A stretch of 64,000 nucleotides of DNA from an uncultured Chitinophagales bacterium (GTDB taxonomy: Bacteria; Bacteroidota; Rhodothermia; Balneolales; HLUCCA01): positions 191,166 to 255,165 of the forward strand of contig CAYYPL010000003.1 in the NCBI GenBank assembly GCA_964473555.1, in the 5' to 3' direction. The translations under genes and the position numbers were made by a program. The notes under the pieces are model-generated. The model had not been told where the DNA came from and did no database searches. It was given only the letters and a program-made list of their open reading frames with translations. Shown here one piece after another: positions 454 to 43,842 of this stretch; the first letter of the stretch is position 1, and each line of letters starts with the position of its first letter.

Positions 454-483
454 GTTGTGTCTTTTTATTTAGTGAACCATGAG

Positions 484-1908: not shown

Positions 1909-1916
1909 CGAATTAG

Positions 1917-3323: not shown

Positions 3324-3358
3324 CTAATTGACGATTATTTATGTTGATTGCGGGTGTT

Positions 3359-4720
3359 TTAAGGGTTCCCCTCGATAGTATTTGCATGCTGGCGAATGAC
3401 ATCCAAAGTCGTGAGGTCATCGGCAAATATCGAGTTCAATCCCTGAGGTTCTTGTGGTGGATCACCCACAAATGGATCACCTGGGCGCCAGCGGGCATCT
3501 TCGTGTTGAGGAATTCCATATCCACCCCAGCTCCAGAAATTGGTTCCAGACAAAGGCGAGTTTAAAGCAATATTGTTTTCAACAATCAGGAATACAAATC
3601 TCAGATAGTTATCTCGGTACGTTATCGCAGTTCCTGGTTCAAATCGTTCAAAATCTCTTCCCAGTCCAAACTCAGACAGAACTGTTGGTTTATTCAGTTG
3701 TTTCGCGTAATCGATATGTTTTTGGATGTAGGCTCGGGCACTATCCTGCGTGACCTGAAAAGATACTTCCATGTTATTCGCATCAAACCATCCCCAGTTT
3801 TTGGCCCACATGTGGAACGTAAGATAGTCCACATCTGGTGAAGCATGGGCCTCTAGGTACATCGTTTCTGAGTTACGGCTACCAGCAAGTCCTTCATTCC
3901 CAGTTGAAAGTAACTGATGTGGGGCCAGTTCTTTGATGAATCGGGCACTTTCGTGCACCCATTTAATGAACTGAGGACCATTTTGAAGCCCTTCGTCCCC
4001 GGATCCGGGTCTGGGTTCATTGGCCAGCTGCCAGGACATAATGGTTGGATCCTGATTGTAATCCATTCCCGTGATTGTGTTTTTCCGGGTAATAACGTGG
4101 GTAATGTACTCTTTCCATGCCTGTTGGGCTGATCCGTTGAAATAAAATCGGGCGGCATGGTTCTGAAATCCGTGCCAGTCGCCAGTCTCACCCGGATCAG
4201 TTGCTGGACCCTCCCCAAACCATTCGCTATACACGCTCATTCCACCCGACCATTCCCACATATTGTTCAGAAATACTACCGCTTTCATGTCCCTTTTGGC
4301 CATCTCAGCGAGTAAAAAATCTAATCCGACAAGCAGATTCTCGTTGATTTCACCGGGAGCCGACTGAAAGGAAGGTTGCAGTGCACGTGTATGATTGGCC
4401 TGTTCAGAGGCCGCAAGAATCCGTAGGTTCGTGATACCCGTTTCTTTGAGTAAATCCAGTTCCTGTATCAATCTGTTTCTATCCCCTTCAGGCCCGGGAG
4501 ATCCCAGGTAAGCTCCGTACCAAAAATTGGTACCCACAAAGCGATAGGTTTCCCCATTGAGTTTAAACTGAGTTCCATCCACCTGAACAAATTCAGCACT
4601 TTTGGGAGTTTTTGAGGAAAAATCGCAACCTGAAAGGAATTGCACTGAAAGTAGTACCCCAAATACATAGACAAGCGGGAGTAGCTTTTTAGTTACAAAT
4701 CGGCTTTTAGTTGATTTCAT
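3359..4720 (-). CDS. GH5 endo-beta-1,4-mannanase, secreted lipoprotein
   Basis: Motifs FVGTNFWYGAYLG, WQLANEPR (acid/base Glu) and LSEFGL (nucleophile Glu). Signal peptide with Cys (FLSGCD). Confidence 0.8.
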   Translation of the reverse strand: MKSTKSRFVTKKLLPLVYVFGVLLSVQFLSGCDFSSKTPKSAEFVQVDGTQFKLNGETYRFVGTNFWYGAYLGSPGPEGDRNRLIQELDLLKETGITNLRILAASEQANHTRALQPSFQSAPGEINENLLVGLDFLLAEMAKRDMKAVVFLNNMWEWSGGMSVYSEWFGEGPATDPGETGDWHGFQNHAARFYFNGSAQQAWKEYITHVITRKNTITGMDYNQDPTIMSWQLANEPRPGSGDEGLQNGPQFIKWVHESARFIKELAPHQLLSTGNEGLAGSRNSETMYLEAHASPDVDYLTFHMWAKNWGWFDANNMEVSFQVTQDSARAYIQKHIDYAKQLNKPTVLSEFGLGRDFERFEPGTAITYRDNYLRFVFLIVENNIALNSPLSGTNFWSWGGYGIPQHEDARWRPGDPFVGDPPQEPQGLNSIFADDLTTLDVIRQHANTIEGNP

Positions 4721-4729
4721 TGTTTTGAG

Positions 4730-5728
4730 TCAGTTCGGTGAATGAGTCTCGTAGGATTTTTCGACCAATACTTTCGTAGCCAGGATACCTTCTTCTTCAG
4801 AAAGTTTACTCCCTTCATATTCAACGCAGATATACTCTTGAAATTCAGATTTCCTGATGATGTCCATCATTCTAAAATAGTCGATAGTAGTCTCAAATCC
4901 CTGAATATCAAATGCATGGGATTTTGCACTAACGGATTTAGCCAATGGCATGAGTTTTTCTACACCGATGTATCTGTTATAGATATCACCATCGCCCCAG
5001 ATAAAGTCTTCGGAAAACGTGAAATTATCAAAATCGACCACTGTTCCGAGTAATGGATGATCGGCTAAACGGATGGTTTCCACCAACCAGTCCGCGTTAC
5101 TCGACATCCCTCCATGATTCTCAACCAGAATCATCAATCCGAATTGTTGGGCTCTTTGTGCCAGTTGATGCAATCCATCAGCAGCCAACTTAACCTGTTC
5201 ACTGGCTTTACCCATACTAAATGCATTCACACGCATGTAGTTGCAACCGAGCTGTTTGGAAGCTTCCATCCATTTTATATGATTCTCAATGGCCTGAGCT
5301 TTCATTTTAGCATCAGGATGACCGATAAATCCTTCTTCATCAACCATCAGCAAGATATTTTTTACCCCTAGTGAGTCCGTTCTTCGTTTGAGCTCATTTA
5401 AAAATGTTGCATCTGTAGCATGCCCGTATATCAGTGTGTTGACATATTCAACGGCATCAAATCCGAGTTCTTTAGCTTTTTCCGGAAAATCGAGCGGATG
5501 AAGAGTACCTTGCCACAATCGATCGGGATCTGAATGAAGTGTACGTTGCCAGGCTTCATAGTCATCCTTTGAGTTACCAAAAATAGCCCTATGGAGTGCC
5601 CATTGAGAAAGTGATAATTTGAGCTGGGAATCGCGATTTCTTTCCATTGTTTCAAATTTCAGAGGATTCACCATGGTACCACCAAGTGCTAAAGTAACTG
5701 AACCAAGAAAATTTTTGCGATTCATCAT
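4730..5728 (-). CDS. Xylose-isomerase-like TIM-barrel protein (sugar phosphate isomerase/epimerase family) with Tat-like signal
   Basis: The N-terminus MMNRKNFLGSVTLALGG resembles a twin-arginine-type leader (RK variant). The body resembles the AP-endonuclease-2/xylose-isomerase TIM-barrel family (VENHGG motif). Confidence 0.6.
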   Translation of the reverse strand: MMNRKNFLGSVTLALGGTMVNPLKFETMERNRDSQLKLSLSQWALHRAIFGNSKDDYEAWQRTLHSDPDRLWQGTLHPLDFPEKAKELGFDAVEYVNTLIYGHATDATFLNELKRRTDSLGVKNILLMVDEEGFIGHPDAKMKAQAIENHIKWMEASKQLGCNYMRVNAFSMGKASEQVKLAADGLHQLAQRAQQFGLMILVENHGGMSSNADWLVETIRLADHPLLGTVVDFDNFTFSEDFIWGDGDIYNRYIGVEKLMPLAKSVSAKSHAFDIQGFETTIDYFRMMDIIRKSEFQEYICVEYEGSKLSEEEGILATKVLVEKSYETHSPN

Positions 5729-6933
5729 TATTTATTTCCAGATGAGTCAGCAACGTACATATCCGGTAGATCATCCTCAAGCCAGACAAACGGATCAGCC
5801 CGAAATTCCACGAAATTTTGCGCACTGATCTGACCAGGGAATGGCGCATAGTAATGATCTCTTCGTTCTCTGTCGTAGGTTGCATTCCGCCATACCAGAA
5901 AGTATGCGATCTGGCGTGTCTTTTCGTTATGAAGTACCGATGATAATATCACATCTGTCCACCAACGAGGATTGGGAATGGCTTCGAGTCCTGTCTCGGT
6001 CAGGGCTGCAACCTTACCCCTGTCGTTGGCAATATCAACCGTGTACTCCAGACTCCGGCGAAAATGTTCTAACTGAATTTCGGGAGGTGTGTCATTTACG
6101 GGATGACCAAGATCCCAATAATTATCCAGTCCAATGATGTCGACATAGGCATCACCCGGATATCCCCATAGATACCCGCTTTCAAAATTCTCGATATCGA
6201 TGCGACTCCTGTCGGGAGAGTACGCATAAATCAGATTATTAAGGCCATGGAAATCACGGAGGTACTCGACTGTGAATCTCCAAAGTGCAATGAAGTCTTC
6301 TTCATTAGTTGACCCCTTGCACCACCAGAACCAGTCCCCGTTATGTTCATGCCAGGGACGAAAAATCACAGGGACTGGTGCCAATTCACGAAAGTATTCG
6401 GCTGCACGATCCAGATTTTGCTTTAGAATAGGATGAAGGTCTCCACCCGGAATGATTCGATGCACAACTGCTGTAGTATCATAAAACGACTTACCGGTTC
6501 CAGGATTGTACATATGCCACTCATACGTCAATATACCACCACGATCAAAGGTACCACGATCTCGTTTCAGCTGGATATCGACACGTGCTTGTCTGGTTGA
6601 GTCGTCAAACTGTGGATTAGCGACATAGTTTACATCCCATCCATACACCGCAGGAAAGGATCCGGAGACATCCTTCACATCAGATCGGATTGAATCGACC
6701 GGAAGATCGGAACTATGCCAGGTGTAGCCATAATCCAGGGTAGCCTGGTGCCCGAACATAAGACCCTGTCCGGCATAGTGATGCAGGTTCTGGTACAAAT
6801 TCTGCGTGAGTTGACCCGCATTGGGATCAACCATAGACATCTGCTCAGAAACATTTAGGTCTGAATGTTTGACACAGCCCATAAAAATTACAACCAAGCT
6901 AATAATAAACAGGTAATTAGATATTTTTATCAT
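5728..6933 (-). CDS. GH26 beta-mannanase, lipoprotein
   Basis: FRPWHEHNGDWFWW matches the GH26 acid/base motif, and ALTETG matches the nucleophile motif. Lipoprotein signal (FMGCVK). Confidence 0.85.
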   Translation of the reverse strand: MIKISNYLFIISLVVIFMGCVKHSDLNVSEQMSMVDPNAGQLTQNLYQNLHHYAGQGLMFGHQATLDYGYTWHSSDLPVDSIRSDVKDVSGSFPAVYGWDVNYVANPQFDDSTRQARVDIQLKRDRGTFDRGGILTYEWHMYNPGTGKSFYDTTAVVHRIIPGGDLHPILKQNLDRAAEYFRELAPVPVIFRPWHEHNGDWFWWCKGSTNEEDFIALWRFTVEYLRDFHGLNNLIYAYSPDRSRIDIENFESGYLWGYPGDAYVDIIGLDNYWDLGHPVNDTPPEIQLEHFRRSLEYTVDIANDRGKVAALTETGLEAIPNPRWWTDVILSSVLHNEKTRQIAYFLVWRNATYDRERRDHYYAPFPGQISAQNFVEFRADPFVWLEDDLPDMYVADSSGNK

Positions 6934-6979
6934 AGTCCTCGTATTAGATTTGGAAGTATCTTATGAATGGGTAGATCAG

Positions 6980-8227
6980 CTACCTCTGAGCCAATTCAGT
7001 GTTAATTTCTGAGTTACTTAATTCATTAATCAATGAATGGACCAGAATACAGGCTCGGGAAGTGTGATAAGGACATTTCCATGGACCCACTTTATCATCC
7101 GTCAAAACAGGATTTCCCTGTCGGGAGACGCGAAAATACCACTCCCCGTGATGCCTGTCTATCACATGGTTTGAGATAAATTCCCAAATCGACAAGACCG
7201 TTACCAGGTACTCCGAATTTCCGGAAAGTTTATAGGCGAACATAAGTCCAACCATCGCTTCCGCCTGAGCCCACCAGTGTTTTTCGGTATTGGTCACGGA
7301 ACCATGCTCGCCAGCATTATAGACCCCGCCGTATTCGGTATCAATTGCCTGCCTCAGCACCATTTCGGAGACTTCCAAGGTTACCTGTTCGCAACGCACT
7401 ACCAAATCCGTGCGATGGATTGCCTGGGCTGCATCAAGCATCAACCAGACGGTCTCAATGTCGTGTCCATAGGAGTACACGGAGGTAACAGGGCGCCAGT
7501 TTTCATCAAAAAAGGCATAAAAATGGTGCCCTACTGGATGATAGATTTTGTCTAAAAACACCTCCAGCATCATAACCAGTCGGTCTTTTAGAACCTGATC
7601 CGGCCACACTTTATAGAGTGCGGCATAAGCTTCAAGTAGATGCAAATGAGTGTTTGTTGAACGTGGAGCCATCAAGTCGCTTTCTCCAAGTCTTACATCG
7701 TCAAGTGGACTCCAATCCTGGGTAAAAGCCTCCAAATACGCCTGATAATTGGCTGAGAATGCATTTTTTTCAATCAGATGAAAGAGCTCTATGGCACGAT
7801 CCAGAACGTGCTGGTCTCCTGTTGCATCACAGATTGTAGCATAGGCATAAATTCCGAAACTTTGTGCATATACATGTTTTTTGGAATCTATCGCATTGCC
7901 GGTAGCATCTGTCATCCAGTATAATCCGCCATTGACTGGATCGGTAAATTCATCGTGAAGAATTCGGGCTGCAGCCTGCATCGGGACAAGAAGAGAAGCG
8001 TCGGCAGTAAATTTATAAGAAGCTGCAAAGGTGTACGCGATTCGGGCTATCAGGATTGCAGAACGCTCTGCCTGCGGATGGATTTGATTTTGGGCATCAA
8101 TCCTGCCGTTAAATGAATCTGATACATCCGAATACACACGGTCTTTCCAGTATGGAAGAATATGCGAATTCAGTTCAGTAAATAAGGCTTCTTTGAGTTT
8201 AAGTAACTCAGTTTCAATCTTCATCAA
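6980..8227 (-). CDS. N-acylglucosamine 2-epimerase superfamily; cellobiose/mannobiose 2-epimerase
   Basis: A 415-aa AGE-family (alpha/alpha)6 protein. There is a 4-nt overlap with the upstream GH130 gene. The epimerase-phosphorylase pairing is characteristic of mannan catabolism. Confidence 0.75.
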
Positions 8228-9399
8228 AAGCCTGCTTTCTTATTGGCATTGATCAGGTCTATTCGTTGTTGGACTGATTCTGCTGATCTGTATCCATCTG
8301 AAGGAGTATTCAGCACGTAGTCAAGCAACTGGTCGACACTTGTTGTGGCAACATGGAGCCTGGTATCGGATGAAGCATAATAGATAAAGACACTGCCATT
8401 GTCATCTGCGATCCATCCGTTACTAAATAACACATTCGAAACATCCCCTACGCGTTCGTCGCCTTCTGGACCCATAAACAAACCGCCGGGACGAGCGATA
8501 ATCTTGCCGGGTTCGGCCAAATCAGTCAGAAACAGATACAGTACATAGCGTAATCCGGCCGCTGTATTCCTGACCCCGTGAGCCAGGTGCAACCACCCTT
8601 TTGGCGTTTTGATGGGAGCCGGACCCTGACCGTTTTTGGCTTCTTTTATGGTATGATAGACACGTGGATCAATGACCGTTTCCTGATCGATGACACAGTT
8701 TTCCATAGAATCTGCCAAAGCCCAGCCTATTCCACCACCAGAACCTGCTTCAATAAACCCATCTTGCGGACGAGTATATAACGCATACTTCCCATTCACA
8801 AACTCAGGATGCAACACAACATTTCGTTGTTGTTTGGAATTGGATTTCAGATCAGGAAGTCGTTCCCAGTTTATAAGGTCTTTTGTTCGTACGATTCCAG
8901 CCTGAGCCACTGCACTGGAAGTATCGTGTTTTGGAGCTTCGGGATCTTTTCGTTCGGTGCAGAAAATACCATAGATCCACCCGTCTTCATGTGCAGTCAA
9001 TCTCATATCGTACACATTGGTATCCGGATTCTCTGTCTGAGGTATGACACACGGATACGGCCAGAAAGTAAATTGGTCTATTCCATTGGGACTCTCTGCA
9101 ACTGCGAAAAATGACTTTCTGTCGGAACCTTCTACTCGGGCAACAACCAGATATTTCCCGTTAAACTTAATGGCTCCGGCATTAAAAACGGCTCCAACAC
9201 CGAGTCTTTCTATGAGATACGGGTTGGTTTGTGGATTGAAATCGTAGCGCCAGTTTAAGGGAACATGATTATGGGTCAAAACGGGGTGTTCGTATCGTTG
9301 ATAAACTCCATTGGATACGGCAACAGGACGGTTCGGTCGAGATAATAATGATTGATAATGTTCTTTAAGCGCAGTCAGACGCTTTTCAAATAGTGACAT
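8224..9399 (-). CDS. GH130 4-O-beta-D-mannosyl-D-glucose phosphorylase-like
   Basis: A 391-aa protein with no signal peptide and GH130 beta-propeller-type sequence ([32 protein letters not shown]). Synteny with the epimerase and the GH26/GH5 genes. Confidence 0.8.
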
Positions 9400-24405: not shown

Positions 24406-24506
24406 CCGTTTACAGTTTTCACTCGGCTTCGCCTCTTGATTTTCGTTCAAAGACTGCGTGGCTTTGCCACTTGTGTTTGAACTCCAATTCCGTTTTCACT
24501 TTACTG
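24406..24506 (+). repeat. About 100-nt structured intergenic repeat element, copy A
   Basis: About 85-90 percent identical by eye to 37121-37221 (reverse complement) and 41206-41300. The shared core is TTCGTTCAAAGACTGCGTGGCTTTGCCACTTGTGTTTGAACTCCAATTC. Confidence 0.9.
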
Positions 24507-36390: not shown

Positions 36391-36684
36391 TTATTTATCA
36401 AACTCTTTACCAAGAAGTCTCCTAGTATGCCATATTGTCAATAACTCAATGTGGCTAGGTTTCAATTCATAAATTAGTCGATAGTTCCCATGAATCAATT
36501 CCCTAACATCCGATTGATCAAACTCTGATACAACTCTTCCACTTTCAGGATGCTCTCGGAGTAGGTCTATGTGTTCGAATACTCCATCAGACCAATTCAA
36601 TGCCGTAACCAGATCATCCAAAGCTATATAGTCAATACACTCTTCCAGTTTTTCGACGAACTTTTTTGAAAGAACTACTTCCAC
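36391..36684 (-). CDS. parE: Type II toxin, ParE/RelE family
   Basis: 97 aa with a family-like C-terminal segment (NYRLIYELKPSHIELLTIWHTRR). There is a 10-nt overlap with the upstream antitoxin gene. Confidence 0.75.
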   Translation of the reverse strand: MEVVLSKKFVEKLEECIDYIALDDLVTALNWSDGVFEHIDLLREHPESGRVVSEFDQSDVRELIHGNYRLIYELKPSHIELLTIWHTRRLLGKEFDK

Positions 36685-36959
36685 TTAGCTAGATGCTCAT
36701 TAATTCGTGCACGAGCCTGCTCCACGGAATAAACCTCACCCCGCTCGATTTGTTCCTTAGCTTCAAGCAAATCTTCCAAAAGTTCAAGGCGCTCTGTAAT
36801 CCGGTCAAACTCACTAACATCCATTAATACTGCCGCACTTTTTCCGTGCTGAGTCAGGACAATCGGCTGCTTATCTCGTTTCAAACGTTTAATAAAATCT
36901 GCTGAATTCGTTCGAAAATCAGACAACGGTTCGATATCTCTTGCTACAGAAACTTTCAT
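36675..36959 (-). CDS. Type II antitoxin, Phd/YefM family
   Basis: 94 aa. The segment LSDFRTNSADFIKRLKRDKQPIVLTQHGKSAAVLMDVSEFD matches the Phd/YefM N-domain pattern. Confidence 0.8.
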   Translation of the reverse strand: MKVSVARDIEPLSDFRTNSADFIKRLKRDKQPIVLTQHGKSAAVLMDVSEFDRITERLELLEDLLEAKEQIERGEVYSVEQARARINEHLAKWK

Positions 36960-37120: not shown

Positions 37121-37221
37121 GTAAACGGACTTGAGTAAACAGAATTGGATTACAAACACAAGTGGCAAAGCCACGCAGTCTTTGAATGAAAATCAAGAGG
37201 CGGAGCCGAGTGAAAACTGCC
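37121..37221 (-). repeat. About 100-nt structured intergenic repeat element, copy B (inverted)
   Basis: The reverse complement aligns with copy A: GCAGTTTTCACTCGGCTCCGCCTCTTGATTTTCATTCAAAGACTGCGTGGCTTTGCCACTTGTGTTTGTAATCCAATTC. Confidence 0.9.
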
Positions 37222-37421
37222 ATACTCTTCTTCCTTTGCCCTCTTTGACCCCTATTTCCTGCTCCACTGCTCCCCGCTCCACCGCTCTACTGTTCCACCG
37301 CTCCACCCACTACCACGAAAAAAGACTTGTATTGTTTATTCTATTCACAATTTTGCATACATATTCGTAATATGAATATGAAGCATGAATTCCTAACCTT
37401 AAGAACAACCCGCTCGCCCGA

Positions 37422-37790
37422 ATGTTGATCCGACTCAAATCTCTACTACTTTTATTCGCTTTCCTGGTCGGAGCCATTCAACCTATTGTTCCTTTGATTG
37501 AATACCATGTGTTCAAGGACGATATCATCGCATTTTTCTGTGTGAATCGAGATGACCCAAACTCGACATGCAACGGAGTCTGTTATCTGGCTAACCAAAT
37601 CGAACAGGCACAGGAAAAGCAGTCTGACACGTTCGACGGTCTCGGTTCTTACTACCCTATTTCAATCGCAGCTGAATCTGTTTCTCTGCCCCCATCACCT
37701 GCGTCTCTGCAGGACTACCCCACCTTGCCTCTGTCTGATCTGGCATGGAATTTCAAGCAGGTCGAAGTTCCACCACCCATATCGGCCTGA
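37422..37790 (+). CDS. Small membrane-anchored protein with C-x10-C-x3-C motif, unknown function
   Basis: One N-terminal hydrophobic helix, then FFCVNRDDPNSTCNGVCYLANQ. It is the first gene of a plus-strand cluster with the lipoprotein and TBDR. Confidence 0.5.
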   Translation: MLIRLKSLLLLFAFLVGAIQPIVPLIEYHVFKDDIIAFFCVNRDDPNSTCNGVCYLANQIEQAQEKQSDTFDGLGSYYPISIAAESVSLPPSPASLQDYPTLPLSDLAWNFKQVEVPPPISA

Positions 37791-37950
37791 TTATCTTAGC
37801 ATAGTCCCTATTCCTGACGAATCCCTGTAACCGCTTGCGTACCTACCTGTTTTTAAATAAGGTAGCATCCATACTTTTGGTAGTATCACAACCACTGGAC
37901 AAGCTCCTGATTCGTCCAACCTTTTATGTACTATTAATAATTTATTCTTT

Positions 37951-38745
37951 ATGAAACGTTTTATGTATTTCATGTCCCTCGCCGGACTCCTGTTTTTTGC
38001 ATCCTCCTGCACTACTAAAGATTCCAACGAAATCGAAATCCCAAATCTGATGAAAATCGGTGAGTTTACCGACGCCGGAATCACCGTGGTGGCCTATTCC
38101 GATCGCGAACTGGCTGTGGGACATAACCATCTGTATCTCGAAGTGCATCAAAATGGCACCCGATACGATAATGCTTCAATCCAGTTCACTACCATGATGT
38201 TTATGGAGTCGCACTCTCATGCATCTCCATTCGGACTCCCGGAACAGGTGCGTGAAAGAACCCACAATCTGTACAAGACCTGGGCCATTTTCACGATGCC
38301 ATCCGGAATGATGGGTCGGTGGGAACTTCAATTTACAGTCAAAAACGCCAACCAGTCTCAGACTATTGCCACCGGTGTCATCCCCATTCAGGTAGCACAA
38401 TCTACCCGTGTTTCCACGTTTATGGCAGAGAATGGCACCCGATATATCTTGACTTTGGTGAATCCGATGGAACCAAAAGTTGGACTAAACGACCTGGAAG
38501 TAGCCCTGCATCGAAGTGAATCGATGATGAGCTATCCAGCTGTCACCAACGCCGCTGTCGTGTTCGAGCCATGGATGCCTTCGATGGGACACGGATCAAG
38601 CAACAATGTCTCACCCTCCCATCAGGCTAACGGTTTCTATAAAGGAAAGGTCAATTTTAACATGACCGGTGACTGGGAACTGCGCTTCGATATGACCATC
38701 AATGGGATGACTATGTCTCGCAGGACGTTTGCCCTCGAATTTTAA
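37951..38745 (+). CDS. Lipoprotein with two YtkA/FixH-like modules carrying Met/His-rich motifs
   Basis: Lipobox FFASSC. There is an internal duplication, and each half ends in a MxGxWEL(Q/R)F motif (MMGRWELQFTV and MTGDWELRFDM) preceded by MMFMESHSHA or WMPSMGHGSS. Confidence 0.6.
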   Translation: MKRFMYFMSLAGLLFFASSCTTKDSNEIEIPNLMKIGEFTDAGITVVAYSDRELAVGHNHLYLEVHQNGTRYDNASIQFTTMMFMESHSHASPFGLPEQVRERTHNLYKTWAIFTMPSGMMGRWELQFTVKNANQSQTIATGVIPIQVAQSTRVSTFMAENGTRYILTLVNPMEPKVGLNDLEVALHRSESMMSYPAVTNAAVVFEPWMPSMGHGSSNNVSPSHQANGFYKGKVNFNMTGDWELRFDMTINGMTMSRRTFALEF

Positions 38746-38808
38746 TTCTCACATGTTGCCGGATACTCTGACCCCTCTGTATCCGGCAGCATTTTCGAAA
38801 GTTTTGTT

Positions 38809-41034
38809 ATGAATCGATCGATTTTAGTACTGACTATACTTTTTTTTATTTGTTTTAGTCCCGCTCTGGCATCGAGGATGCTGCACGGTGTTGTATTGGA
38901 TGCCAGTTCAGGAGCTCCGATCGAAGGGGTCCACGTCGCTATCGCTCAATCTCAGACAGGAACCATCACCAATGCGACCGGCGAGTTCATGCTGGCAATT
39001 CCATCTCAACACCTGATCCTTGTGTTTTCACACATCGGATACCAAAAGCGGGAGGTTTCGCTACATGACATTTCAGATCTTGATGAGCATATACAGATTT
39101 TACTGCAGCCAAAAAGTGTATCCTCCGATGAAGTCTTGATCACCGCAAATCGGACAAATACCGGATACAATGGCATCAATAATGACATTCGTACCAAGAC
39201 AGTGGACGATTACCTGGCCTCAACTGCCGGACTAGACCTTGTATCAAGAGCCAATATAGCCCGGGATCCCGTGGTAAGAGGTCTCCGCGACGGCCGTGTT
39301 GCCGTGATGGTCGATGGGATGCGCCTGACTCCAGCTTGCGTAGATGGCATGGATCCGGCTACAGCGTACATCGAAACGGACAATCTAAGGTCTATCGAGG
39401 TCAGCAAGGGATTCGATCCTGAGTCATCGATTGGAGCATCATCCGGAGCAGCGGTGAACTTTTCACTTTCACGTCCAGTGTTAAACAGCGGGTTGTCGAT
39501 TTCAGCCGAAACCGGATATCAGTCAGTCAGCGAACAAAAGGTGGTCCAGGGATCGATCTCCTACGGACAAGAAACCTTGGCATTTCGGGCTTCAGGTACT
39601 TTCCGCGATGCGTCCGATTACTCAGCTGGAAAGAATACGCGCATTTCGGGATCCGGATATCAAAAGAGTAACGTTCTCACATCTCTCGTCTACCATCCGA
39701 CCGAAAAACATCAGTTCAACCTTCGATACATTGGCGATTTTGCTGGAAAAATCGGATATCCAAACTTGATCATGGATACCCGCAACGCAACTGCACACAT
39801 TTTTGGGCTCGAACATGCATGGATTAATCCATTCCCTGCTGTAGCAAGTATCACCTCTAATGTGTACATCAACACGGTCAATCACCTGATGGATGATTAC
39901 GATCGCGACGTCACAGCTCGGACTGTCATGCCAAACATGTACATGCCTATGGATGGAGAAACCGTTACTGCCGGACTAACAAGCAAAGCTATTCTATTAC
40001 ATGGCAATCACTTCGCGACCATTCAGCTGGAGGCATACCAACTTGATGCATTCGCTGATATGCTCATGGAACACCTCAGTCCGGATATCAACGACATGTA
40101 TCTCATCAACCTGGGAGATGTAACCCAACAACATCTTGGATTGACCACCTCGTATCGATACGTTACTGAAAATGGATATCAACTAGGTGGAAGTTTAACT
40201 CTGCGAGGTGAGAATAATCTGCTTCGCGAAACCAGTGCCCGGGCAACCTATCAAGCTGAATATCCAGACTTAGATACGCTGGAACCACTCGGACTAGCCT
40301 ACACTACAGGTGTATCGGTGGAAAAAGAGCTTCATAAATGGTTAAGAAGTGGGGTATCTTTCAGTCACGGAACCCGGCTTGCAGACCACATGGAGCGTTA
40401 CGGATACTATATTTATCAGCCTCTTGATGGATTTTTCTACTTCGGAAATCCGAGCTTGAGACCCGAGCGTAGCACAAAATTTGAAATCAACACACAGTTT
40501 GGAGCTGCAAACACTACTATCTCAGGAAATGCCTCTTTTTGGGTGAATCGTCTCGATAACTATATAGCTGGATTACGTCAGGATGCGCTGTTCAAGCGGT
40601 ATCAGAACATGGGCTCGGCCACGTTATCCGGATTCGAAATCGAATTGGCTGCGAACCTGCCTCCTCACTGGAAAGCAGGTTCTGTTGTTTCTTATGTACA
40701 TGGCAATCATAACGAACTGAACGAACCATTACCGATGATTCCACCTTTTAAAGGAACCGTATACCTGCAACGACAGTCTGAGTCGATACAACTTGAAGGT
40801 CGACTTCGATGGGCAGCCGCTCAAAATCGAATTGCCTCACAAAATAGCCTTGAAACTACCACAGGCGGGCACATTTTGATCGACTTTTTCGCTCAAAAAC
40901 GCCTAGGGAACATGTTTTCATTGCAGATAGGCGTAGAAAACATCATGGATACCTACTACATCGATCATCTGAGCGTTAACTCGATTCCATCTACAGGAAG
41001 AAATATTCAACTTTCGCTGAGGTTGAAATTGTAA
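38809..41034 (+). CDS. TonB-dependent receptor with CarbopepD_reg N-domain, substrate unknown (metal suspected)
   Basis: N-terminal LHGVVLDASSGAPIEGVHVAI, a plug segment VMVDGMRLTPACVDGMDPATAYIE, 741 aa. Confidence 0.8.
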   Translation: MNRSILVLTILFFICFSPALASRMLHGVVLDASSGAPIEGVHVAIAQSQTGTITNATGEFMLAIPSQHLILVFSHIGYQKREVSLHDISDLDEHIQILLQPKSVSSDEVLITANRTNTGYNGINNDIRTKTVDDYLASTAGLDLVSRANIARDPVVRGLRDGRVAVMVDGMRLTPACVDGMDPATAYIETDNLRSIEVSKGFDPESSIGASSGAAVNFSLSRPVLNSGLSISAETGYQSVSEQKVVQGSISYGQETLAFRASGTFRDASDYSAGKNTRISGSGYQKSNVLTSLVYHPTEKHQFNLRYIGDFAGKIGYPNLIMDTRNATAHIFGLEHAWINPFPAVASITSNVYINTVNHLMDDYDRDVTARTVMPNMYMPMDGETVTAGLTSKAILLHGNHFATIQLEAYQLDAFADMLMEHLSPDINDMYLINLGDVTQQHLGLTTSYRYVTENGYQLGGSLTLRGENNLLRETSARATYQAEYPDLDTLEPLGLAYTTGVSVEKELHKWLRSGVSFSHGTRLADHMERYGYYIYQPLDGFFYFGNPSLRPERSTKFEINTQFGAANTTISGNASFWVNRLDNYIAGLRQDALFKRYQNMGSATLSGFEIELAANLPPHWKAGSVVSYVHGNHNELNEPLPMIPPFKGTVYLQRQSESIQLEGRLRWAAAQNRIASQNSLETTTGGHILIDFFAQKRLGNMFSLQIGVENIMDTYYIDHLSVNSIPSTGRNIQLSLRLKL

Positions 41035-41205
41035 ATAATAGCCAAGCAGGCAAGAGGGCAAGAGGACAAGAGGACAAGCAATTTCGCATTTTCTCAAAAT
41101 AAACCGCACTCCTGCCCCGAGCTATTACCCCGTTCTCACTCGTCTGTACCTCATGATGTACAACCAAAGCCGACATGGATTCACCACACAAGTTTGGTCT
41201 TGTAT

Positions 41206-41300
41206 GGCTGTTTTGACACGGCTTCTCCTCTTTATTTTCGTTCAAAGTCTGCGTGGCTTTGCCACTTGTGTTTGAACTCCAATTCAGTTTTCCGTTTACA
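41206..41300 (+). repeat. About 100-nt structured intergenic repeat element, copy C
   Basis: GGCTGTTTTGACACGGCTTCTCCTCTTTATTTTCGTTCAAAGTCTGCGTGGCTTTGCCACTTGTGTTTGAACTCCAATTCAGTTTTCCGTTTACA aligns with copies A and B. Confidence 0.9.
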
Positions 41301-41330
41301 CTTGAAATTGGGTCAAAACCCAATTTCAAG
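41301..41330 (-). terminator. Perfect 13-bp hairpin enclosing the TBDR stop codon
   Basis: CTTGAAATTGGGT-caaa-ACCCAATTTCAAG. On the minus strand the 5-prime arm encodes the last residues LEIGF, and the TGA stop spans the stem/loop junction. Confidence 0.6.
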
Positions 41331-43763
41331 TCTTAGTAAAAAATGCCTCCCGGCCTGCGGATAGTAAAAATTGAACCGATACTCTTCCCCGCCCCAGTAC
41401 CACGCGTAGGTGTATCCGTTGGTTTCATAAGCAGTATCAAGTACGTTGAAAACCTGCAGAGACAAACTGGCGTTGCGCAGACTGGCTATCCCGCCGAGGT
41501 CGTAGCTGAATTCCAGATCATGGATCAAGTACGGATCAATGGACCGGCTTTCAAGTCCGGAGTTGTCCAAATACTGCCGACTGACTCCCTTGGTAATGAG
41601 TCCGGCCTGAAACCTTCCTCTTTCATAATTGAAGGTGCTGGATCCCACCATTTCGGGCGATAACGCAATCGGAGTGTCCTCATACACGATTTCACGCTGA
41701 GCCCCCGTGTCGAAATCATCCACAAACTCTACGAATTCCGGAATCCGGTGCCGACTCAGGGTCAAATTCCCACCCCACTGCCACGAATCACTCAATCGCA
41801 ATCCGCCTTCGAGCTCAATCCCAACCCGATAACTGTCTTTCACGTTGGTGCGGATCGCCGCTCCTACGTCGTTCAACTGTCCGGTGAGAATCAGTTGATT
41901 GTCATAGTTCATCCAGAAGAAATTGGATCCGACATACCATCCGGACCGATCGATACGATATCCGGCTTCAAGGTCATACAACGTTTCGTGACTGGGGCGG
42001 GACTCGGGCGTCGATTGCGTGTACTCCCGACGCACCGGTTCTTTGTTGCCCACACTGTACGAAATATAGGCACGCTGACCGTTTCCGGAGCGATAAACCA
42101 GTCCAGCCTTCGGATTGAAAAAGGTCAGGTCGACGGACTGGTCAACACTGTTCTGATTCCTGTCGAAGCCCAGAAATGTGTATCCAACTCGTCGCACCTG
42201 AACGTCGCCAAACGCGCTCAGTCGCTCAGAAAGGTCATAATTGAGCTTGGTATACGCGTTTAAATCCGTTTTGAATCCATTATTATCGTAATACCGGTCT
42301 CCGATGCTCAACTGTGGAGCATTTCGGGCCCAAATCACCTCTCCGAAGTGGTCTCCATCGTATTCGTTGTATCCACCTCCGGCTGTAAGTGTCCATTTTT
42401 CGGCCTGATACTCGGTCGAAACCACCATCCCGTAAAAGTGATTGTCCAGCCAACGGCGCCGAACCAGATCACTTCGTGGCGATCCCTGAACAATGGTATA
42501 GGTCGAAAGCCGATCGTCTTCACGGAATTCTTCGAAGTATCCCGCCCCACGTGTGTAATGCAGCGCCGAATTCAGATACCAGTTGTCCTGAAGCCGGTAG
42601 GAATAGTGCAGCTGATAATGAGTCTGCGAATACTGATCAACCTGATCTTCATAAGTGAACATATTATACCGGCGGGGATCGCTATTCAGCAAACGCTGGG
42701 TCTCAGCCTCGGACAATCCATGATTCTCGGCGTAGTACAACATTCCCTCGCGGTCGTTTCTAAGACGCGCCTCCGGGATACCGTTCCAGGCCTGATAAGT
42801 ACGCTCACTGCCCGAAAACACATTAATCTTGAGCAAGTCCCGGGATCCGTATCTGGACGCCGACACAAACCAGGAACTCAAGTCGGATGTCGCCCGATCA
42901 ATGAATCCATCACTTTGTATTGAAGAAAGTCTACCTTCAATAGCCCACTGATTTGGAAGGAGTCCGGTTCCAACCTGGAGTGTATTTCGGAAGGTATTAA
43001 AACTGCCATAGGTCGATGAAACCCGTGCATAGGGATCCGTTTCAAGGGCGCCAGTCTGCAGATTTAGTGTTGCTCCAAACGCTGCCGGACCATTGGTCGA
43101 AGTACCGACTCCACGCTGTATCTGCATGTTTCCTACAGATGATGCGAAGTCAGGTAGGTTGACCCAGAACACGCCATGCGACTCGGAGTCGTTGAGTGGA
43201 ATCCCATTAATCGTAACATTGATTCGGGTATCGTCGACACCACGGATACGCAGTCCGGTGTATCCGATTCCAGCTCCGGCGTCGGATGTACTCACCACAG
43301 ATGGCGTCTGAAGCAGCAAAAACGGGATATCCTTACCCGAATTCTGTTTTTCGATGTCGTCGCGGGTCACGTTCGAATACGTAACCGGAGTTCTGTCGTC
43401 GACTCGATGTCCCATGACAAAGATTTCGTCCGAAATCACCGTTTCTGGCAATAGAAGCACCGAAATACTCGAAGCATCACTCTTGCGGACAGTAATCGAC
43501 TCGGATTTATACCCCAAAAACGACACTTCAAGTGTTATTGACCCACGATCCCATGCCGTAGCAGGTGGGGTATAGGTAAATCGCCCATCGAGTCCCGTCC
43601 TAGCGCCGAAATCTGTTCCAGAAATCCGTACTGCGGCACCTGGCAGCGGATCCCGGGTAGTTGCATCACGCACCACTCCAGAAACTGACTGTGCAGAAAT
43701 GATATCTGGCAGTAACAATACCACCAGCAATGTAGTTGAAAGAAGAAATTTAAGTTTAAGCAT
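41313..43763 (-). CDS. TonB-dependent receptor, thiamine/thiamine-precursor uptake inferred from the TPP riboswitch
   Basis: CarbopepD_reg N-domain (VSGVVRDATTRDPLPGAAVRISG), plug and barrel, terminal Phe. The start is moved to the ATG at 43763 (MLKLKFLLSTTLLVVLL signal), because the longer ORF would run into the riboswitch expression platform. Confidence 0.85.
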   Translation of the reverse strand: MLKLKFLLSTTLLVVLLLPDIISAQSVSGVVRDATTRDPLPGAAVRISGTDFGARTGLDGRFTYTPPATAWDRGSITLEVSFLGYKSESITVRKSDASSISVLLLPETVISDEIFVMGHRVDDRTPVTYSNVTRDDIEKQNSGKDIPFLLLQTPSVVSTSDAGAGIGYTGLRIRGVDDTRINVTINGIPLNDSESHGVFWVNLPDFASSVGNMQIQRGVGTSTNGPAAFGATLNLQTGALETDPYARVSSTYGSFNTFRNTLQVGTGLLPNQWAIEGRLSSIQSDGFIDRATSDLSSWFVSASRYGSRDLLKINVFSGSERTYQAWNGIPEARLRNDREGMLYYAENHGLSEAETQRLLNSDPRRYNMFTYEDQVDQYSQTHYQLHYSYRLQDNWYLNSALHYTRGAGYFEEFREDDRLSTYTIVQGSPRSDLVRRRWLDNHFYGMVVSTEYQAEKWTLTAGGGYNEYDGDHFGEVIWARNAPQLSIGDRYYDNNGFKTDLNAYTKLNYDLSERLSAFGDVQVRRVGYTFLGFDRNQNSVDQSVDLTFFNPKAGLVYRSGNGQRAYISYSVGNKEPVRREYTQSTPESRPSHETLYDLEAGYRIDRSGWYVGSNFFWMNYDNQLILTGQLNDVGAAIRTNVKDSYRVGIELEGGLRLSDSWQWGGNLTLSRHRIPEFVEFVDDFDTGAQREIVYEDTPIALSPEMVGSSTFNYERGRFQAGLITKGVSRQYLDNSGLESRSIDPYLIHDLEFSYDLGGIASLRNASLSLQVFNVLDTAYETNGYTYAWYWGGEEYRFNFYYPQAGRHFLLRLEIGF

Positions 43764-43842
43764 AATTCCCTGTATGATGTTGTGTTCATCAGGGATGCTG
43801 CGTGAATGGCTATACAATTGAGACCGTGCGACTAAATGTCGA

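What the first reader, a model, noticed from the sequence alone, without database searches (positions are those of the whole stretch)
37360..41034. Uncharacterised three-gene outer-membrane uptake module: Cys-motif small protein, Met/His-rich tandem YtkA-like lipoprotein, TBDR
The plus-strand cluster has three genes:
- A 122-aa single-pass protein with FFCVNRDDPNSTCNGVCYL (C-x10-C-x3-C).
- A lipoprotein with an internal duplication. Each half carries a Met/His cluster (MMFMESHSHA, WMPSMGHGSS) ahead of an MxGxWEL(Q/R)F strand, reminiscent of Cu/metal-binding YtkA/FixH-like folds.
- A 741-aa TBDR whose plug contains ACVDGMDPATAY.
The inverted repeat CATATTC-N7-GAATATG (37360-37380) sits about 40 nt upstream of the first gene and could be a metalloregulator operator. 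Together this looks like a metallophore-independent metal (Cu/Zn/Ni?) acquisition system with no characterised member that I know of.
Basis: inference. Interest (0 to 1): 0.6.

Follow-up and report, generated by a model that had tools for sequence, protein, structure and literature searches.

The report
Copper-import operon with stalling leader peptide
This is a three-gene copper-uptake operon, widespread in Bacteroidota-group bacteria, in which a small leader peptide that probably senses copper while it is being made precedes a copper-binding lipoprotein and an outer-membrane copper importer of a known type; only the lipoprotein's role as partner of the importer is undescribed.

Summary
The three plus-strand genes exist as described and are conserved in this order from Balneolales to Sphingobacteriia, Cytophagia and Chitinophagia. 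The metal is almost certainly copper.

- **Receptor (741 aa):** an OprC/NosA-type transporter. It keeps the OprC copper site (Cys177-x3-Met181 and His359-x-Met361, 182 residues apart against 180 in OprC) and a Met-rich stretch after it.
- **Lipoprotein:** two YtkA-like (PF13115) Ig-like domains. Each has invariant Met/Met/His plus Met and Trp. The closest solved structure is the copper-binding protein CrdA of Helicobacter pylori.
- **122-aa protein:** probably not a structural component but a leader peptide built like the copper-sensing arrest peptides CruR and CutF. It has an N-terminal anchor, an invariant C-x9-C-x3-C motif, a poorly conserved spacer of fixed length (62-72 residues), an invariant Pro-Pro 1-7 residues before the stop, and a long C-rich, G-poor intergenic region.
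- **Leader family:** very large, unnamed in Pfam and NCBIfam, with no detectable homology to DUF2946.
absent from the closest relatives and close to chance.

This scan reached the same reading of the leader family on another genome (e1-5266256). Nothing here has been tested experimentally.

The parts
37325..37357 (+). Putative promoter. TTG at 37327-37329, then 18 nt, then CAATTTTG at 37348-37355, which resembles the Bacteroidetes -33/-7 promoter type. A sigma-70-like reading (TTCACA-18-TAATAT, 37344-37373) is also possible.
   Evidence: This block is conserved in the close relatives L087 and L088, while the sequence just downstream of it is not. The consensus scan gives the sigma-70-like reading. 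The promoter type is inferred from my own knowledge of Bacteroidetes promoters. No transcription start site has been mapped.
37360..37380 (.). Probably a chance palindrome, not a conserved operator.
   Evidence: It is present in the window. It is absent from L087, whose leader is 92% identical, and from L088. Seven percent of shuffled upstream regions contain such a repeat, and there are 98 in the window.
37422..37790 (+). Leader ORF of 122 aa. It has an N-terminal hydrophobic anchor (residues about 7-30), a C40-x9-C50-x3-C54 motif (37539-37583), a poorly conserved spacer, PPP at residues 117-119 (37770-37778), then Ile-Ser-Ala and the stop codon.
   Evidence: Sequence.
- C40, C50, G52, C54, P118 and P119 are invariant in 61 homologues.
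- The distance from the third Cys to PP is 62-72 residues, and PP lies 1-7 residues before the stop.
- The family has 8228 representative clusters.
- 147 of the top 149 carry both motifs.
- There is no Pfam or NCBIfam hit.
- AlphaFold2 gives residues 71-122 low confidence with almost no secondary structure.
37791..37950 (+). 160-nt intergenic region, C-rich and G-poor, without significant structure. Candidate Rho-loading region.
   Evidence: C exceeds G in the 3' half of the leader ORF in 97% of 62 loci and in the intergenic region in 90%. The figures are 21% for the 5' half and 39% for the lipoprotein gene. The fold z-score is -0.6 and no terminator is found. The genome has Rho.
37951..38745 (+). 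Lipoprotein of 264 aa (lipobox Cys20) with two YtkA-like Ig-like domains. Site 1 is M83/M85/H90 (38194-38223) plus M116 and W124. Site 2 is M209/M212/H214 (38572-38601) plus M238 and W242.
   Evidence: - PF13115 matches twice, at 63 bits against a cut-off of 25.9.
- The invariant residues come from an alignment of 30 homologues.
- AlphaFold2 gives mean pLDDT 94.
- The closest specific structure is H. pylori CrdA, 9LL2 (target-normalised TM-score 0.68, rmsd 3.5 A).
- In the sequence match (E 0.004), the MPSMGHG loop aligns with CrdA's Met-rich loop.
38753..38792 (+). Stable 14-bp stem-loop between the lipoprotein stop and the receptor start. It may be a partial terminator or a stabiliser that sets the ratio of lipoprotein to receptor.
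   Evidence: Free energy -23.8 kcal/mol, z -5.2. The stem is kept in L087 and in L088, where GGAU/AUCC becomes GAAU/AUUC, a change on both sides. Its function was not tested.
38809..41034 (+). OprC/NosA-type TonB-dependent copper transporter of 741 aa. It has an N-terminal CarboxypepD_reg-like domain, a TonB-box-like DEVLITA, a plug carrying C177-x3-M181 (39337-39351), H359-x-M361 in the barrel (39883-39891), and then the Met-rich VMPNMYMPM.
   Evidence: - Pfam finds Plug, TonB_dep_Rec_b-barrel and CarbopepD_reg_2.
- The best NCBIfam model is TIGR01778 TonB-copper, at 160 bits and below its cut-off of 472.
- The best PDB match is OprC 6FOK (E 2e-18), with Cys, Met, His and Met aligned to the OprC copper ligands.
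- Both motifs are kept in 67 of 69 related receptors, with a Cys-to-His distance of 159-192 residues (nearly all 177-192).
- These receptors have 4.2 Met in the 32 residues from the His, against 1.1 expected.

Best explanation
A copper-acquisition operon of a Balneolales bacterium, made of a regulatory leader and two working proteins.

1. **Receptor.** The 741-aa receptor is an OprC/NosA-type TonB-dependent transporter. It binds ionic copper at a buried Cys-Met / His-Met site fed by a methionine-rich surface stretch and imports it across the outer membrane. The site residues are shown by alignment. Transport is inferred.

2. **Lipoprotein.** The 264-aa lipoprotein, always encoded directly upstream of the receptor, carries two Met/Met/His (+Met, +Trp) sites on two YtkA/CrdA-type domains. 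It most likely binds Cu(I) as the receptor's partner.
   - The alternative is a surface-exposed capture protein.
   - The fold and the conserved ligands are shown. Binding, orientation and the hand-over are inferred.

3. **Leader.** The 122-aa ORF is a cis-acting, copper-sensing leader peptide that works like CruR. Its three invariant cysteines bind copper in the nascent chain while the ribosome sits on the invariant Pro-Pro a few codons before the stop.
   - When copper is scarce, the ribosome stays stalled, Rho is kept off the C-rich untranslated region, and the lipoprotein and receptor genes are transcribed.
   - When copper is sufficient, the stall is relieved, the ribosome leaves, and transcription ends in the 160-nt spacer.
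   - The anatomy is shown. Stalling, the direction of the response and the role of Rho are inferred by analogy.
For: **Receptor**
- OprC is the best solved relative, and all four copper ligands align.
- TIGR01778 is the best NCBIfam model.
- The motifs, their spacing and the Met-rich stretch are kept in 67 of 69 distinct receptors encoded next to the lipoprotein.

**Lipoprotein**
- Two PF13115 matches.
- Invariant Met, His and Trp in both halves.
- A confident two-domain model.
- CrdA is the closest structure, and its Met loop aligns (PMC9182242).
- YtkA (CtaK) acts in CuA assembly (PMC13344008).
- In Sphingobacterium the lipoprotein-receptor pair closes a nosL-nosD-nosF-nosY cluster.

**Leader**
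- 62 of 76 loci have it first in the operon.
- Six invariant residues, with a spacer of fixed length (62-72 residues) at about 20% identity.
- 147 of the 149 best hits in the representative library carry both motifs, 111 of them ending in FHPP.
- The C-terminal half is predicted to be unstructured.
- The median gap to the next gene is 147 nt, against 23 nt between lipoprotein and receptor.
- C exceeds G in the 3' half and the spacer only.
- In 28 other loci the next gene is YtkA (10), a TonB receptor (8), MbnP (4) or SCO1 (1). These are the same copper-linked neighbours as for CruR (PMC9426467).
- Rho and two COX1 genes are present in this genome.
Against: - There is no experiment on any member of the leader family or on the tandem lipoprotein.
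- The leader has no detectable homology to DUF2946: no Pfam hit in 61 members and hhalign probability 0.7%. The mechanism therefore rests on analogy.
- The Cys motif differs from the known leaders (C-x9-C-x3-C against CxxC/CxxxC). So does the arrest motif (PPP or FHPP against RAPP). So does the spacing (about 65 residues against 45).
- In 35% of loci the spacer folds better than shuffles (z below -2), and 9 of 60 have terminator-like hairpins. The read-out may therefore be structural rather than Rho-dependent in part of the family.
- 14 of 76 loci lack the leader.
- The receptor scores far below the TIGR01778 equivalog cut-off (160 against 472 bits).
- The orientation of the lipoprotein is undecided. 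Only 57% of the family, and not the window's protein, have two acidic residues after the lipid-modified Cys.
Confidence: 0.68

Rival explanations
1. The small protein is a stable, working component: an inner-membrane-anchored periplasmic copper chaperone or docking protein. Its three Cys bind Cu(I) received from the receptor or lipoprotein. The fixed-length linker spans the periplasm, and the C-terminal FHPP/PPP peptide docks onto a partner.
For: - It has an N-terminal anchor and an invariant three-Cys site.
- The constant linker length could be a physical ruler.
- It is always co-located with copper-handling genes.
Against: - The C-terminal half is not conserved in sequence and is predicted to be unstructured.
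- The Pro-Pro lies 1-7 codons from the stop.
- The ORF is first in the operon.
- A long C-rich spacer follows it, in contrast to the tight lipoprotein-receptor junction.

Together these reproduce the anatomy of CruR and CutF, which are degraded and act in cis (PMC9426467, PMC9973294).
Confidence: 0.15
2. The leader works like CutF rather than CruR. It is exported co-translationally, senses periplasmic copper, and controls translation of the lipoprotein gene by opening an RNA structure. Rho termination is not involved, and the sign of the response may differ.
For: - The N-terminal signal or anchor is conserved.
- With 65 residues between the Cys motif and the PP, the motif would be fully outside the ribosome and the translocon when the ribosome reaches PP. 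This is my inference from the geometry given in PMC9973294.
- 35% of the spacers fold better than shuffles.
- Polyproline (PPP) is also the CutF stall motif (bioRxiv 10.1101/2025.02.05.636593).
Against: - The window's spacer is 160 nt, unstructured (z -0.6) and C-rich.
- No Shine-Dalgarno-like sequence precedes the lipoprotein ATG for a hairpin to hide. This is my reading of the sequence.
- CutF-type control is linked to short spacers (PMC9973294).
- An uptake system is expected to be switched off by copper, as with CruR.
Confidence: 0.25
3. The lipoprotein is a surface-exposed copper-capturing partner of the receptor, a BtuG/HmuY/SusD-type lid, rather than a periplasmic relay.
For: - Pairs of a TonB-dependent transporter and a surface lipoprotein are the rule in Bacteroidota (PMC6143338).
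- Acidic residues are enriched at positions +3 to +6 after the lipid-modified Cys (37-48% Asp or Glu). This resembles the lipoprotein export signal C-X-K-(D/E)2 or SDDDD (PMC5080379).
- The lipoprotein is strictly adjacent to the receptor.
Against: - Only 94 of 166 have at least two acidic residues, and only 57 of 166 fit a stricter pattern. The window's own CTTKDSNE is weak.
- The characterised relatives CtaK and CrdA are chaperones on the periplasmic or extracytoplasmic side.
- OprC needs no lid.
- The pair sits beside periplasmic nos maturation genes in Sphingobacterium.
Confidence: 0.38
4. The module handles another soft metal, such as silver or zinc, or serves detoxification rather than uptake.
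For: CrdA belongs to a copper-resistance and efflux locus. Met/His sites also bind Ag(I). ZnuD is a structural neighbour of OprC (PMC8610252).
Against: - The complete Cys-Met/His-Met site is copper-specific in OprC, which excludes zinc (PMC8610252).
- A TonB-dependent receptor imports.
- The neighbours of the leader family (SCO1, MbnP, nos genes) are copper-supply genes.
- No efflux pump is in the operon.
Confidence: 0.07

Closest known systems
OprC of Pseudomonas aeruginosa / NosA of P. stutzeri (TIGR01778; PDB 6FOK; PMC8610252)
   Same: - It is a TonB-dependent transporter.
- All four copper ligands align: Cys and Met in the plug, His and Met in the barrel wall.
- The Cys-to-His distance is the same (182 against 180 residues).
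- A Met-rich stretch follows the His-x-Met.
- In relatives it is linked to N2O-reductase genes.
   Different: - It is a distant relative (E 2e-18; 160 bits against an equivalog cut-off of 472).
- It has an extra N-terminal CarboxypepD_reg-like domain.
- It is always paired with a YtkA-type lipoprotein, which OprC lacks.
- Its leader belongs to a different family from the DUF2946 leader before oprC.
CruR (Bp2923, DUF2946/PF11162) of Bordetella pertussis, leader of cruR-crtA(bfrG)-bp2921 (PMC9426467, PMC12914433)
   Same: - It is a small first ORF of a copper-uptake operon before a TonB-dependent transporter.
- It has an N-terminal export signal and a Cys metal motif.
- A fixed-length, poorly conserved spacer follows.
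- Pro-Pro lies about 3 residues before the stop.
- The intergenic region is about 160 nt, with a stretch where C exceeds G.
- The kinds of neighbouring genes are the same (TonB receptors, Sco, MbnP).
   Different: - No detectable sequence homology.
- C-x9-C-x3-C instead of CXXC.
- PPP or FHPP instead of RAPP.
- A spacer of about 65 residues instead of 45.
- Found in Bacteroidota and Balneolales instead of Proteobacteria.
- Untested.
CutF of Rhodobacter capsulatus and the 'CutF-like' class (PMC9973294; bioRxiv 10.1101/2025.02.05.636593)
   Same: It is an exported leader with a Cys motif and a C-terminal polyproline stall. The published survey criteria fit this protein: under 150 aa, PP within the last 15 residues, a signal peptide, and a same-strand downstream gene. 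That survey counted 19% of its members in Bacteroidota.
   Different: - CutF switches on a detoxifying oxidase through a short structured spacer and periplasmic sensing. Here there is a long unstructured spacer before uptake genes.
- I could not check whether this family is in the published list, because File S1 is not held.
YtkA-fold copper proteins: CtaK (YtkA) and the YcnJ C-terminal domain of Bacillus subtilis (PMC13344008); CrdA of Helicobacter pylori (PDB 9LL2; PMC9182242)
   Same: It has the PF13115 fold, is a lipoprotein or extracytoplasmic protein, has a Met-rich loop at the same place, and has a role in copper trafficking.
   Different: - Two domains in tandem.
- Met/Met/His ligand sets plus a conserved Trp.
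- Encoded with, and apparently dedicated to, an outer-membrane importer rather than an oxidase-assembly or efflux system.
Bacteroidota pairs of a TonB-dependent transporter and a surface lipoprotein (BtuB-BtuG, SusC-SusD; PMC6143338)
   Same: The lipoprotein gene is strictly adjacent to a transporter gene. The N-terminus after the lipid-modified Cys is acidic in much of the family.
   Different: The fold and the cargo (a metal ion) differ. The lipoprotein gene comes before the transporter gene. Surface exposure is unproven and doubtful for the window's own protein.

Membership tests
OprC/NosA TonB-dependent copper transporters (TIGR01778) | Plug plus 22-strand barrel architecture of a TonB-dependent transporter | tested here: met
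   Pfam finds Plug (E 1.7e-8) and TonB_dep_Rec_b-barrel (E 1e-20). A TonB-box-like DEVLITA is visible in the sequence.
OprC/NosA TonB-dependent copper transporters (TIGR01778) | CxxxM in the plug and HxM in the barrel wall, which are the copper ligands Cys143, Met147, His323 and Met325 of OprC | tested here: met
   C177, M181, H359 and M361 align to these residues. The motifs are kept in 67 of 69 distinct related receptors, nearly all at a spacing of 177-192 residues.
OprC/NosA TonB-dependent copper transporters (TIGR01778) | Score above the curated equivalog cut-off | tested here: not met
   The score is 160 bits against a cut-off of 472.45. TIGR01778 is the best-scoring model but sub-threshold, so this is a distant branch and not an equivalog.
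OprC/NosA TonB-dependent copper transporters (TIGR01778) | Binds and imports ionic copper | not testable with these tools
   This needs metal analysis of the purified protein and uptake assays.
CruR/CutF leaders, DUF2946 (PF11162) | Match to the family profile | tested here: not met
   None of 61 members hits PF11162 at E up to 10. There is no hit in the own genome. hhalign against RAPP-type leaders of the same phylum gives probability 0.7%.
CruR/CutF leaders, DUF2946 (PF11162) | Cys metal motif and C-terminal Pro-Pro arrest motif a few residues before the stop, at a fixed distance from each other | tested here: met
   The feature is present in a variant form. C-x9-C-x3-C and PP are invariant, with spacing of 62-72 residues (mostly 64-67) and PP 1-7 residues before the stop. 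The motifs and the distance differ from CXXC-45-RAPP.
CruR/CutF leaders, DUF2946 (PF11162) | N-terminal export signal, first position in a copper-related operon, and a long spacer before the next gene | tested here: met
   AlphaFold2 gives a hydrophobic N-terminal helix. The ORF is first in 62 of 76 loci. The median spacer is 147 nt. Downstream genes are YtkA, TonB receptor, MbnP and SCO1.
CruR/CutF leaders, DUF2946 (PF11162) | Copper-dependent ribosome stalling that controls downstream expression in cis | not testable with these tools
   The only indirect support is that C exceeds G in the 3' half and the spacer and that Rho is present.
YtkA-like domain (PF13115) | Match above the Pfam gathering score and the matching fold | tested here: met
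   The score is 63.4 bits against 25.9, in two stretches. The model has two beta-sandwich domains at pLDDT 94. CrdA 9LL2 matches with target-normalised TM-score 0.68.
YtkA-like domain (PF13115) | Copper binding by the Met-rich loop | not testable with these tools
   The ligand candidates M83, M85, H90, M116 and M209, M212, H214, M238 are invariant in 30 homologues. The second loop aligns with CrdA's Met loop.
Bacteroidota surface-lipoprotein partners of TonB-dependent transporters | Lipoprotein export signal (a polar residue or Lys, then at least two acidic residues, just after the lipid-modified Cys) | tested here: inconclusive
   94 of 166 have at least two acidic residues at +2 to +6, and 57 of 166 fit a stricter pattern. 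The window's protein reads C-TTKDSNE (PMC5080379).
Metalloregulator operator (Fur/Zur/CsoR/CopY type) at 37360-37380 | A palindrome conserved among orthologous promoters and rarer than chance | tested here: not met
   It is absent in L087 and L088. It arises in 7% of shuffles. It was not compared with known operator consensus sequences.

The most novel reading that the evidence does not exclude
The tandem YtkA lipoprotein is a surface-exposed Cu(I)-capturing lid of the OprC-type transporter, in effect a protein that does the work of a chalkophore. It would be the first pair of a TonB-dependent transporter and a surface lipoprotein dedicated to a free metal ion. The leader is an independently evolved copper-sensing arrest peptide whose 65-residue ruler places its three-Cys sensor outside the translocon, so that the operon reads periplasmic rather than cytoplasmic copper.
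Probability: 0.25. Interest if true: 0.7.

Novelty: new variant of a known kind. Interest (0 to 1): 0.5.

Why it matters
Copper import in bacteria is still poorly understood. OprC, CrtA and the leaders CruR and CutF have been studied only in Proteobacteria. This locus shows that Bacteroidota-group bacteria assemble the same logic from partly different parts: a nascent-peptide sensor followed by an OprC-type importer.

The leader family is very large, unnamed, and not detectably related to DUF2946. It occurs in 110 of 301 sampled genomes of the phylum. In a subset, the operon also carries a two-site Met/His lipoprotein that is always coupled to the importer.

If the lipoprotein is shown to take copper from, or give copper to, the transporter, it would fill the missing step between outer-membrane import and cuproenzyme assembly. 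It would also give annotators a name for two families now labelled "hypothetical" and "FixH family".

Tried and rejected
1. **Membership of the leader in DUF2946.** No profile hit and no profile-profile similarity. Canonical RAPP/RGPP leaders exist in the same phylum at other loci.
2. **NCBIfam name for the leader.** None.
3. **The palindrome as an operator.** Not conserved and near chance.
4. **The 89-nt inverted repeats flanking the operon (37137-37225 and 41202-41290) as transposon ends.** The unit is a dispersed repeat with 10 matches in this genome, so it is not specific to this operon.
5. **A known RNA element in the leader region or spacers.** No Rfam match at E up to 1.
6. **An intrinsic terminator after the leader.** None in the window, and only 9 of 60 loci have one.
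7. **N2O reductase as the copper client here.** The genome has no NosZ but has two heme-copper oxidases.
8. **Zinc or nickel.** The ligand set is the copper-specific OprC set.
10. **Checking whether the published CutF-like list contains this family.** The supplementary list is not held.

Full report
**Observation**

All the quoted peptide motifs are present. The only slip is that the cysteine spacing is C-x9-C-x3-C, not C-x10-C-x3-C. The inverted repeat CATATTC-N7-GAATATG lies at 37360-37380, 41 nt before the first ATG.

**The receptor**

Pfam finds a Plug domain, a TonB-dependent barrel and an N-terminal CarboxypepD_reg-like domain. The best NCBIfam model is TIGR01778, the TonB-dependent copper receptor. 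The score is 160 bits, well below the equivalog cut-off of 472.

The best solved relative is OprC of Pseudomonas aeruginosa (E 2e-18). [quoted passage not shown] In the alignment these four residues face C177, M181, H359 and M361 of the window's protein. The Cys-to-His distance is 182 residues, against 180 in OprC. The His-x-Met is followed by VMPNMYMPM.

Among 69 distinct receptors encoded next to homologues of the lipoprotein:
- 67 keep AC(V/T)D(G/K/R)MD and HxMD, nearly all at 177-192 residues;
- they have 4.2 Met in the following 32 residues, against 1.1 expected.

An OprC-like receptor with this motif has already been noted in a flavobacterium (PMC11213822).

**The lipoprotein**

It has a lipobox (Cys20) and two PF13115 (YtkA-like) matches.

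An alignment of 30 homologues down to 29% identity shows these residues invariant:
- first half: M83, M85, H90, P93, M116 and W124;
- second half: M209, M212, H214, G215, S216, M238, G240 and W242.

Each half therefore has a Met/Met/His loop plus a Met and a Trp on a later strand.

AlphaFold2 with this alignment gives two beta-sandwich domains at mean pLDDT 94. Most Foldseek matches are generic tandem Ig-like folds. The one specific match is the crystal structure of the H. pylori copper-resistance determinant CrdA (9LL2; target-normalised TM-score 0.68, rmsd 3.5 A). CrdA is also the only PDB sequence hit, and its Met-rich loop aligns with MPSMGHG. CrdA binds copper (PMC9182242). B. subtilis YtkA, now called CtaK, is a lipoprotein that acts in CuA-centre assembly (PMC13344008).

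**Synteny**

Relatives of the lipoprotein are encoded in 551 of the species genomes scanned. In 76 loci where I could delimit the gene:
- every locus with enough downstream sequence has the receptor next, with a median gap of 23 nt;
- 62 have, upstream on the same strand, a small ORF with the Cys motif.

The loci come from Balneolales, Rhodothermaceae, Cyclonatronaceae, Sphingobacteriales, Cytophagales, Chitinophagales and Schleiferiaceae. Loci from Ignavibacteria and Melioribacteraceae have the pair without the small ORF, and a Calditrichota locus carries a divergent small ORF.

In Sphingobacterium the lipoprotein-receptor pair closes a nosL-nosD-nosF-nosY cluster. This recalls the original role proposed for NosA. 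The window's own genome has no NosZ but has two heme-copper oxidases, so these are the likely copper clients here.

**The small protein**

Neither Pfam nor NCBIfam matches it or any of 61 homologues. The alignment shows only C40, C50, G52, C54, P118 and P119 invariant, with N42 and L56 nearly so. Mean identity to the window's protein falls to about 20% in Bacteroidota.

Two distances are nevertheless held constant:
- from the third Cys to the Pro-Pro, 62-72 residues (mostly 64-67);
- from the Pro-Pro to the stop, 1-7 residues (mostly 2-3).

A profile search of 1.84 billion representatives finds 8228 clusters at E up to 0.001. Of the best 149, 147 carry both motifs, and 111 end in FHPP plus a few residues. 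Balneolales use xPPP instead. AlphaFold2 gives a confident N-terminal helix, but residues 71-122 have low confidence and almost no secondary structure.

The gene is followed by a long spacer (median 147 nt; 160 nt in the window). The lipoprotein-receptor junction, by contrast, is tight.

Across 62 non-redundant loci, the share in which C exceeds G is:
- 97% for the 3' half of the small ORF;
- 90% for the spacer;
- 21% for the 5' half;
- 39% for the lipoprotein gene.

The window's spacer is not structured (z -0.6) and has no terminator. The genome encodes Rho.

In a sample of 301 genomes of the phylum, 110 carry the family, often in several copies. In 28 loci the next gene is a YtkA lipoprotein (10), a TonB receptor (8), MbnP (4) or SCO1 (1).

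**Comparison with known leaders**

This anatomy is that of the copper-sensing leader peptides CruR and CutF.

CruR of B. pertussis is a DUF2946 protein (PMC9426467). Its features are:
- an export signal;
- a CXXC motif, 45 spacer residues of conserved length, and RAPP three residues before the stop;
- a 162-nt spacer.

When copper is scarce, the ribosome stalls on RAPP and Rho is kept away. When copper binds the nascent chain, the stall is relieved and transcription ends before the receptor gene. CruR homologues precede OprC-type receptors, Sco, PCuAC and MbnP-like genes.

CutF of R. capsulatus uses a polyproline stall and periplasmic sensing to switch on an oxidase. A survey of "CutF-like" proteins placed 19% of them in Bacteroidota (PMC9973294). 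The criteria were: under 150 aa, PP in the last 15 residues, and a signal peptide.

The window's protein meets every architectural criterion but not the homology criterion:
- there is no PF11162 hit;
- hhalign probability is 0.7% against canonical RAPP/RGPP leaders that I found at other loci in the same phylum.

I could not check whether the published list already contains this family. An earlier report of this scan (e1-5266256) reached the same reading for a ...VFHPPSV member on another genome. I arrived at it independently and tested it here.

**Mechanism**

I commit to a CruR-like mechanism for the window. Copper bound by the three cysteines of the nascent chain releases a stall at PPP. This exposes the C-rich spacer to Rho and shuts off the two uptake genes.

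What is shown:
- the motifs;
- the fixed distances;
- the position in the operon;
- the composition of the spacer;
- the copper-linked neighbours.

What is inferred: stalling itself, the sign of the response, and the role of Rho.

A CutF-like translational read-out remains possible. It may apply in the 35% of loci whose spacers fold well.

For the lipoprotein I lean towards a periplasm-facing relay between the receptor and oxidase assembly. The reasons are that its characterised relatives are extracytoplasmic chaperones and that the window's sequence after the lipid-modified Cys is a weak export signal. The acidic enrichment in much of the family (PMC5080379) keeps a surface-capture role open.

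**The proposed operator**

The block TTG-N18-CAATTTTG just upstream (37327-37355) is conserved in the two closest relatives. The palindrome is replaced by unrelated sequence in both of them. Perfect 7-bp inverted repeats of this kind occur 98 times in the window and in 7% of shuffles of the upstream region.

Other Balneolales have a different palindrome (TAAGAG-N-CTCTTA-like) close to the start codon. It may be a real operator, but it is not present here.

**Verdict**

This is a real, conserved copper-uptake operon.
- The receptor is a distant member of a known family.
- The leader is a variant of a known kind and had been seen before in this scan.
- The obligatory pairing of a tandem YtkA-type copper lipoprotein with an OprC-type importer is, as far as the searchable literature shows, undescribed.

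No experimental data exist for any of this.

Noticed in passing
window 37137-37225 (+) and 41202-41290 (-); another copy at about window 24413-24495 (-): An 85-90-nt repeat flanks the operon as an 89-nt inverted pair (88% complementary). It has 10 matches in this genome. Its core is AAACACAAGTGGCAAAGCCACGCAG, which holds a small hairpin, and it is followed by C/T-rich CCTCTTGCCCTCTT-like tracts. There is no Rfam match. It may be a REP- or MITE-like element.
   Followed up: partly
window 38753-38792: A 14-bp stem-loop (-23.8 kcal/mol, z -5.2) lies between the lipoprotein stop and the receptor start. It is conserved in L087 and L088, with a change on both sides of the stem in L088. It could set the ratio of lipoprotein to receptor.
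   Followed up: partly
L001, L007, L009-L013, L016, L018, L019, L025, L027, L050: 10-45 nt before the leader ATG: Most other Balneolales loci share a palindrome of the type ATAAGAGTCTTTTGTCTTAT overlapping a TTTTG promoter-like element. It is a candidate operator. It is absent from the window and its closest relatives.
   Followed up: no
L119-L128 (for example L122, L124, L128): Canonical DUF2946-like leaders occur at other loci in 22 of 301 genomes of the same phylum. They are His-rich, with CxxC and RAPP or RGPP 2-5 residues before the stop. Two unrelated leader families with the same architecture therefore coexist in this group.
   Followed up: partly
Genomes G027, G271, G211, G051, G227, G095 and G022: Some genomes carry two copies of the leader family 2-4 kb apart on one strand. 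This suggests tandem leader-plus-receptor units.
   Followed up: no
L094 and L102 (downstream ORFs of 299-309 aa starting ...ACDACGCS / ACDVCGCS); L108 and L112 (MbnP): The leader family also precedes MbnP, SCO1 and proteins of about 300 aa with an N-terminal CDxCGC motif. One of the 28 downstream proteins scanned weakly matches Phenol_MetA_deg. These may be further copper-handling outer-membrane proteins.
   Followed up: partly
L005 (Sphingobacterium), 278-8852: The lipoprotein-receptor pair sits at the end of a nosL-nosD-nosF-nosY-DUF2249-(423 aa)-FeS_assembly_P cluster, without the leader. Here it may be controlled together with N2O-reductase maturation.
   Followed up: no
window 36391-36959 (-): A Phd/YefM-type antitoxin and a ParE/RelE-like toxin pair lies just upstream of the operon. 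A PhdYeFM antitoxin gene also lies upstream in the Balneolaceae locus L001.
   Followed up: no
window 41300-41331: A perfect 14-bp inverted repeat overlaps the stop of the neighbouring minus-strand receptor gene (41313-43817).
   Followed up: no
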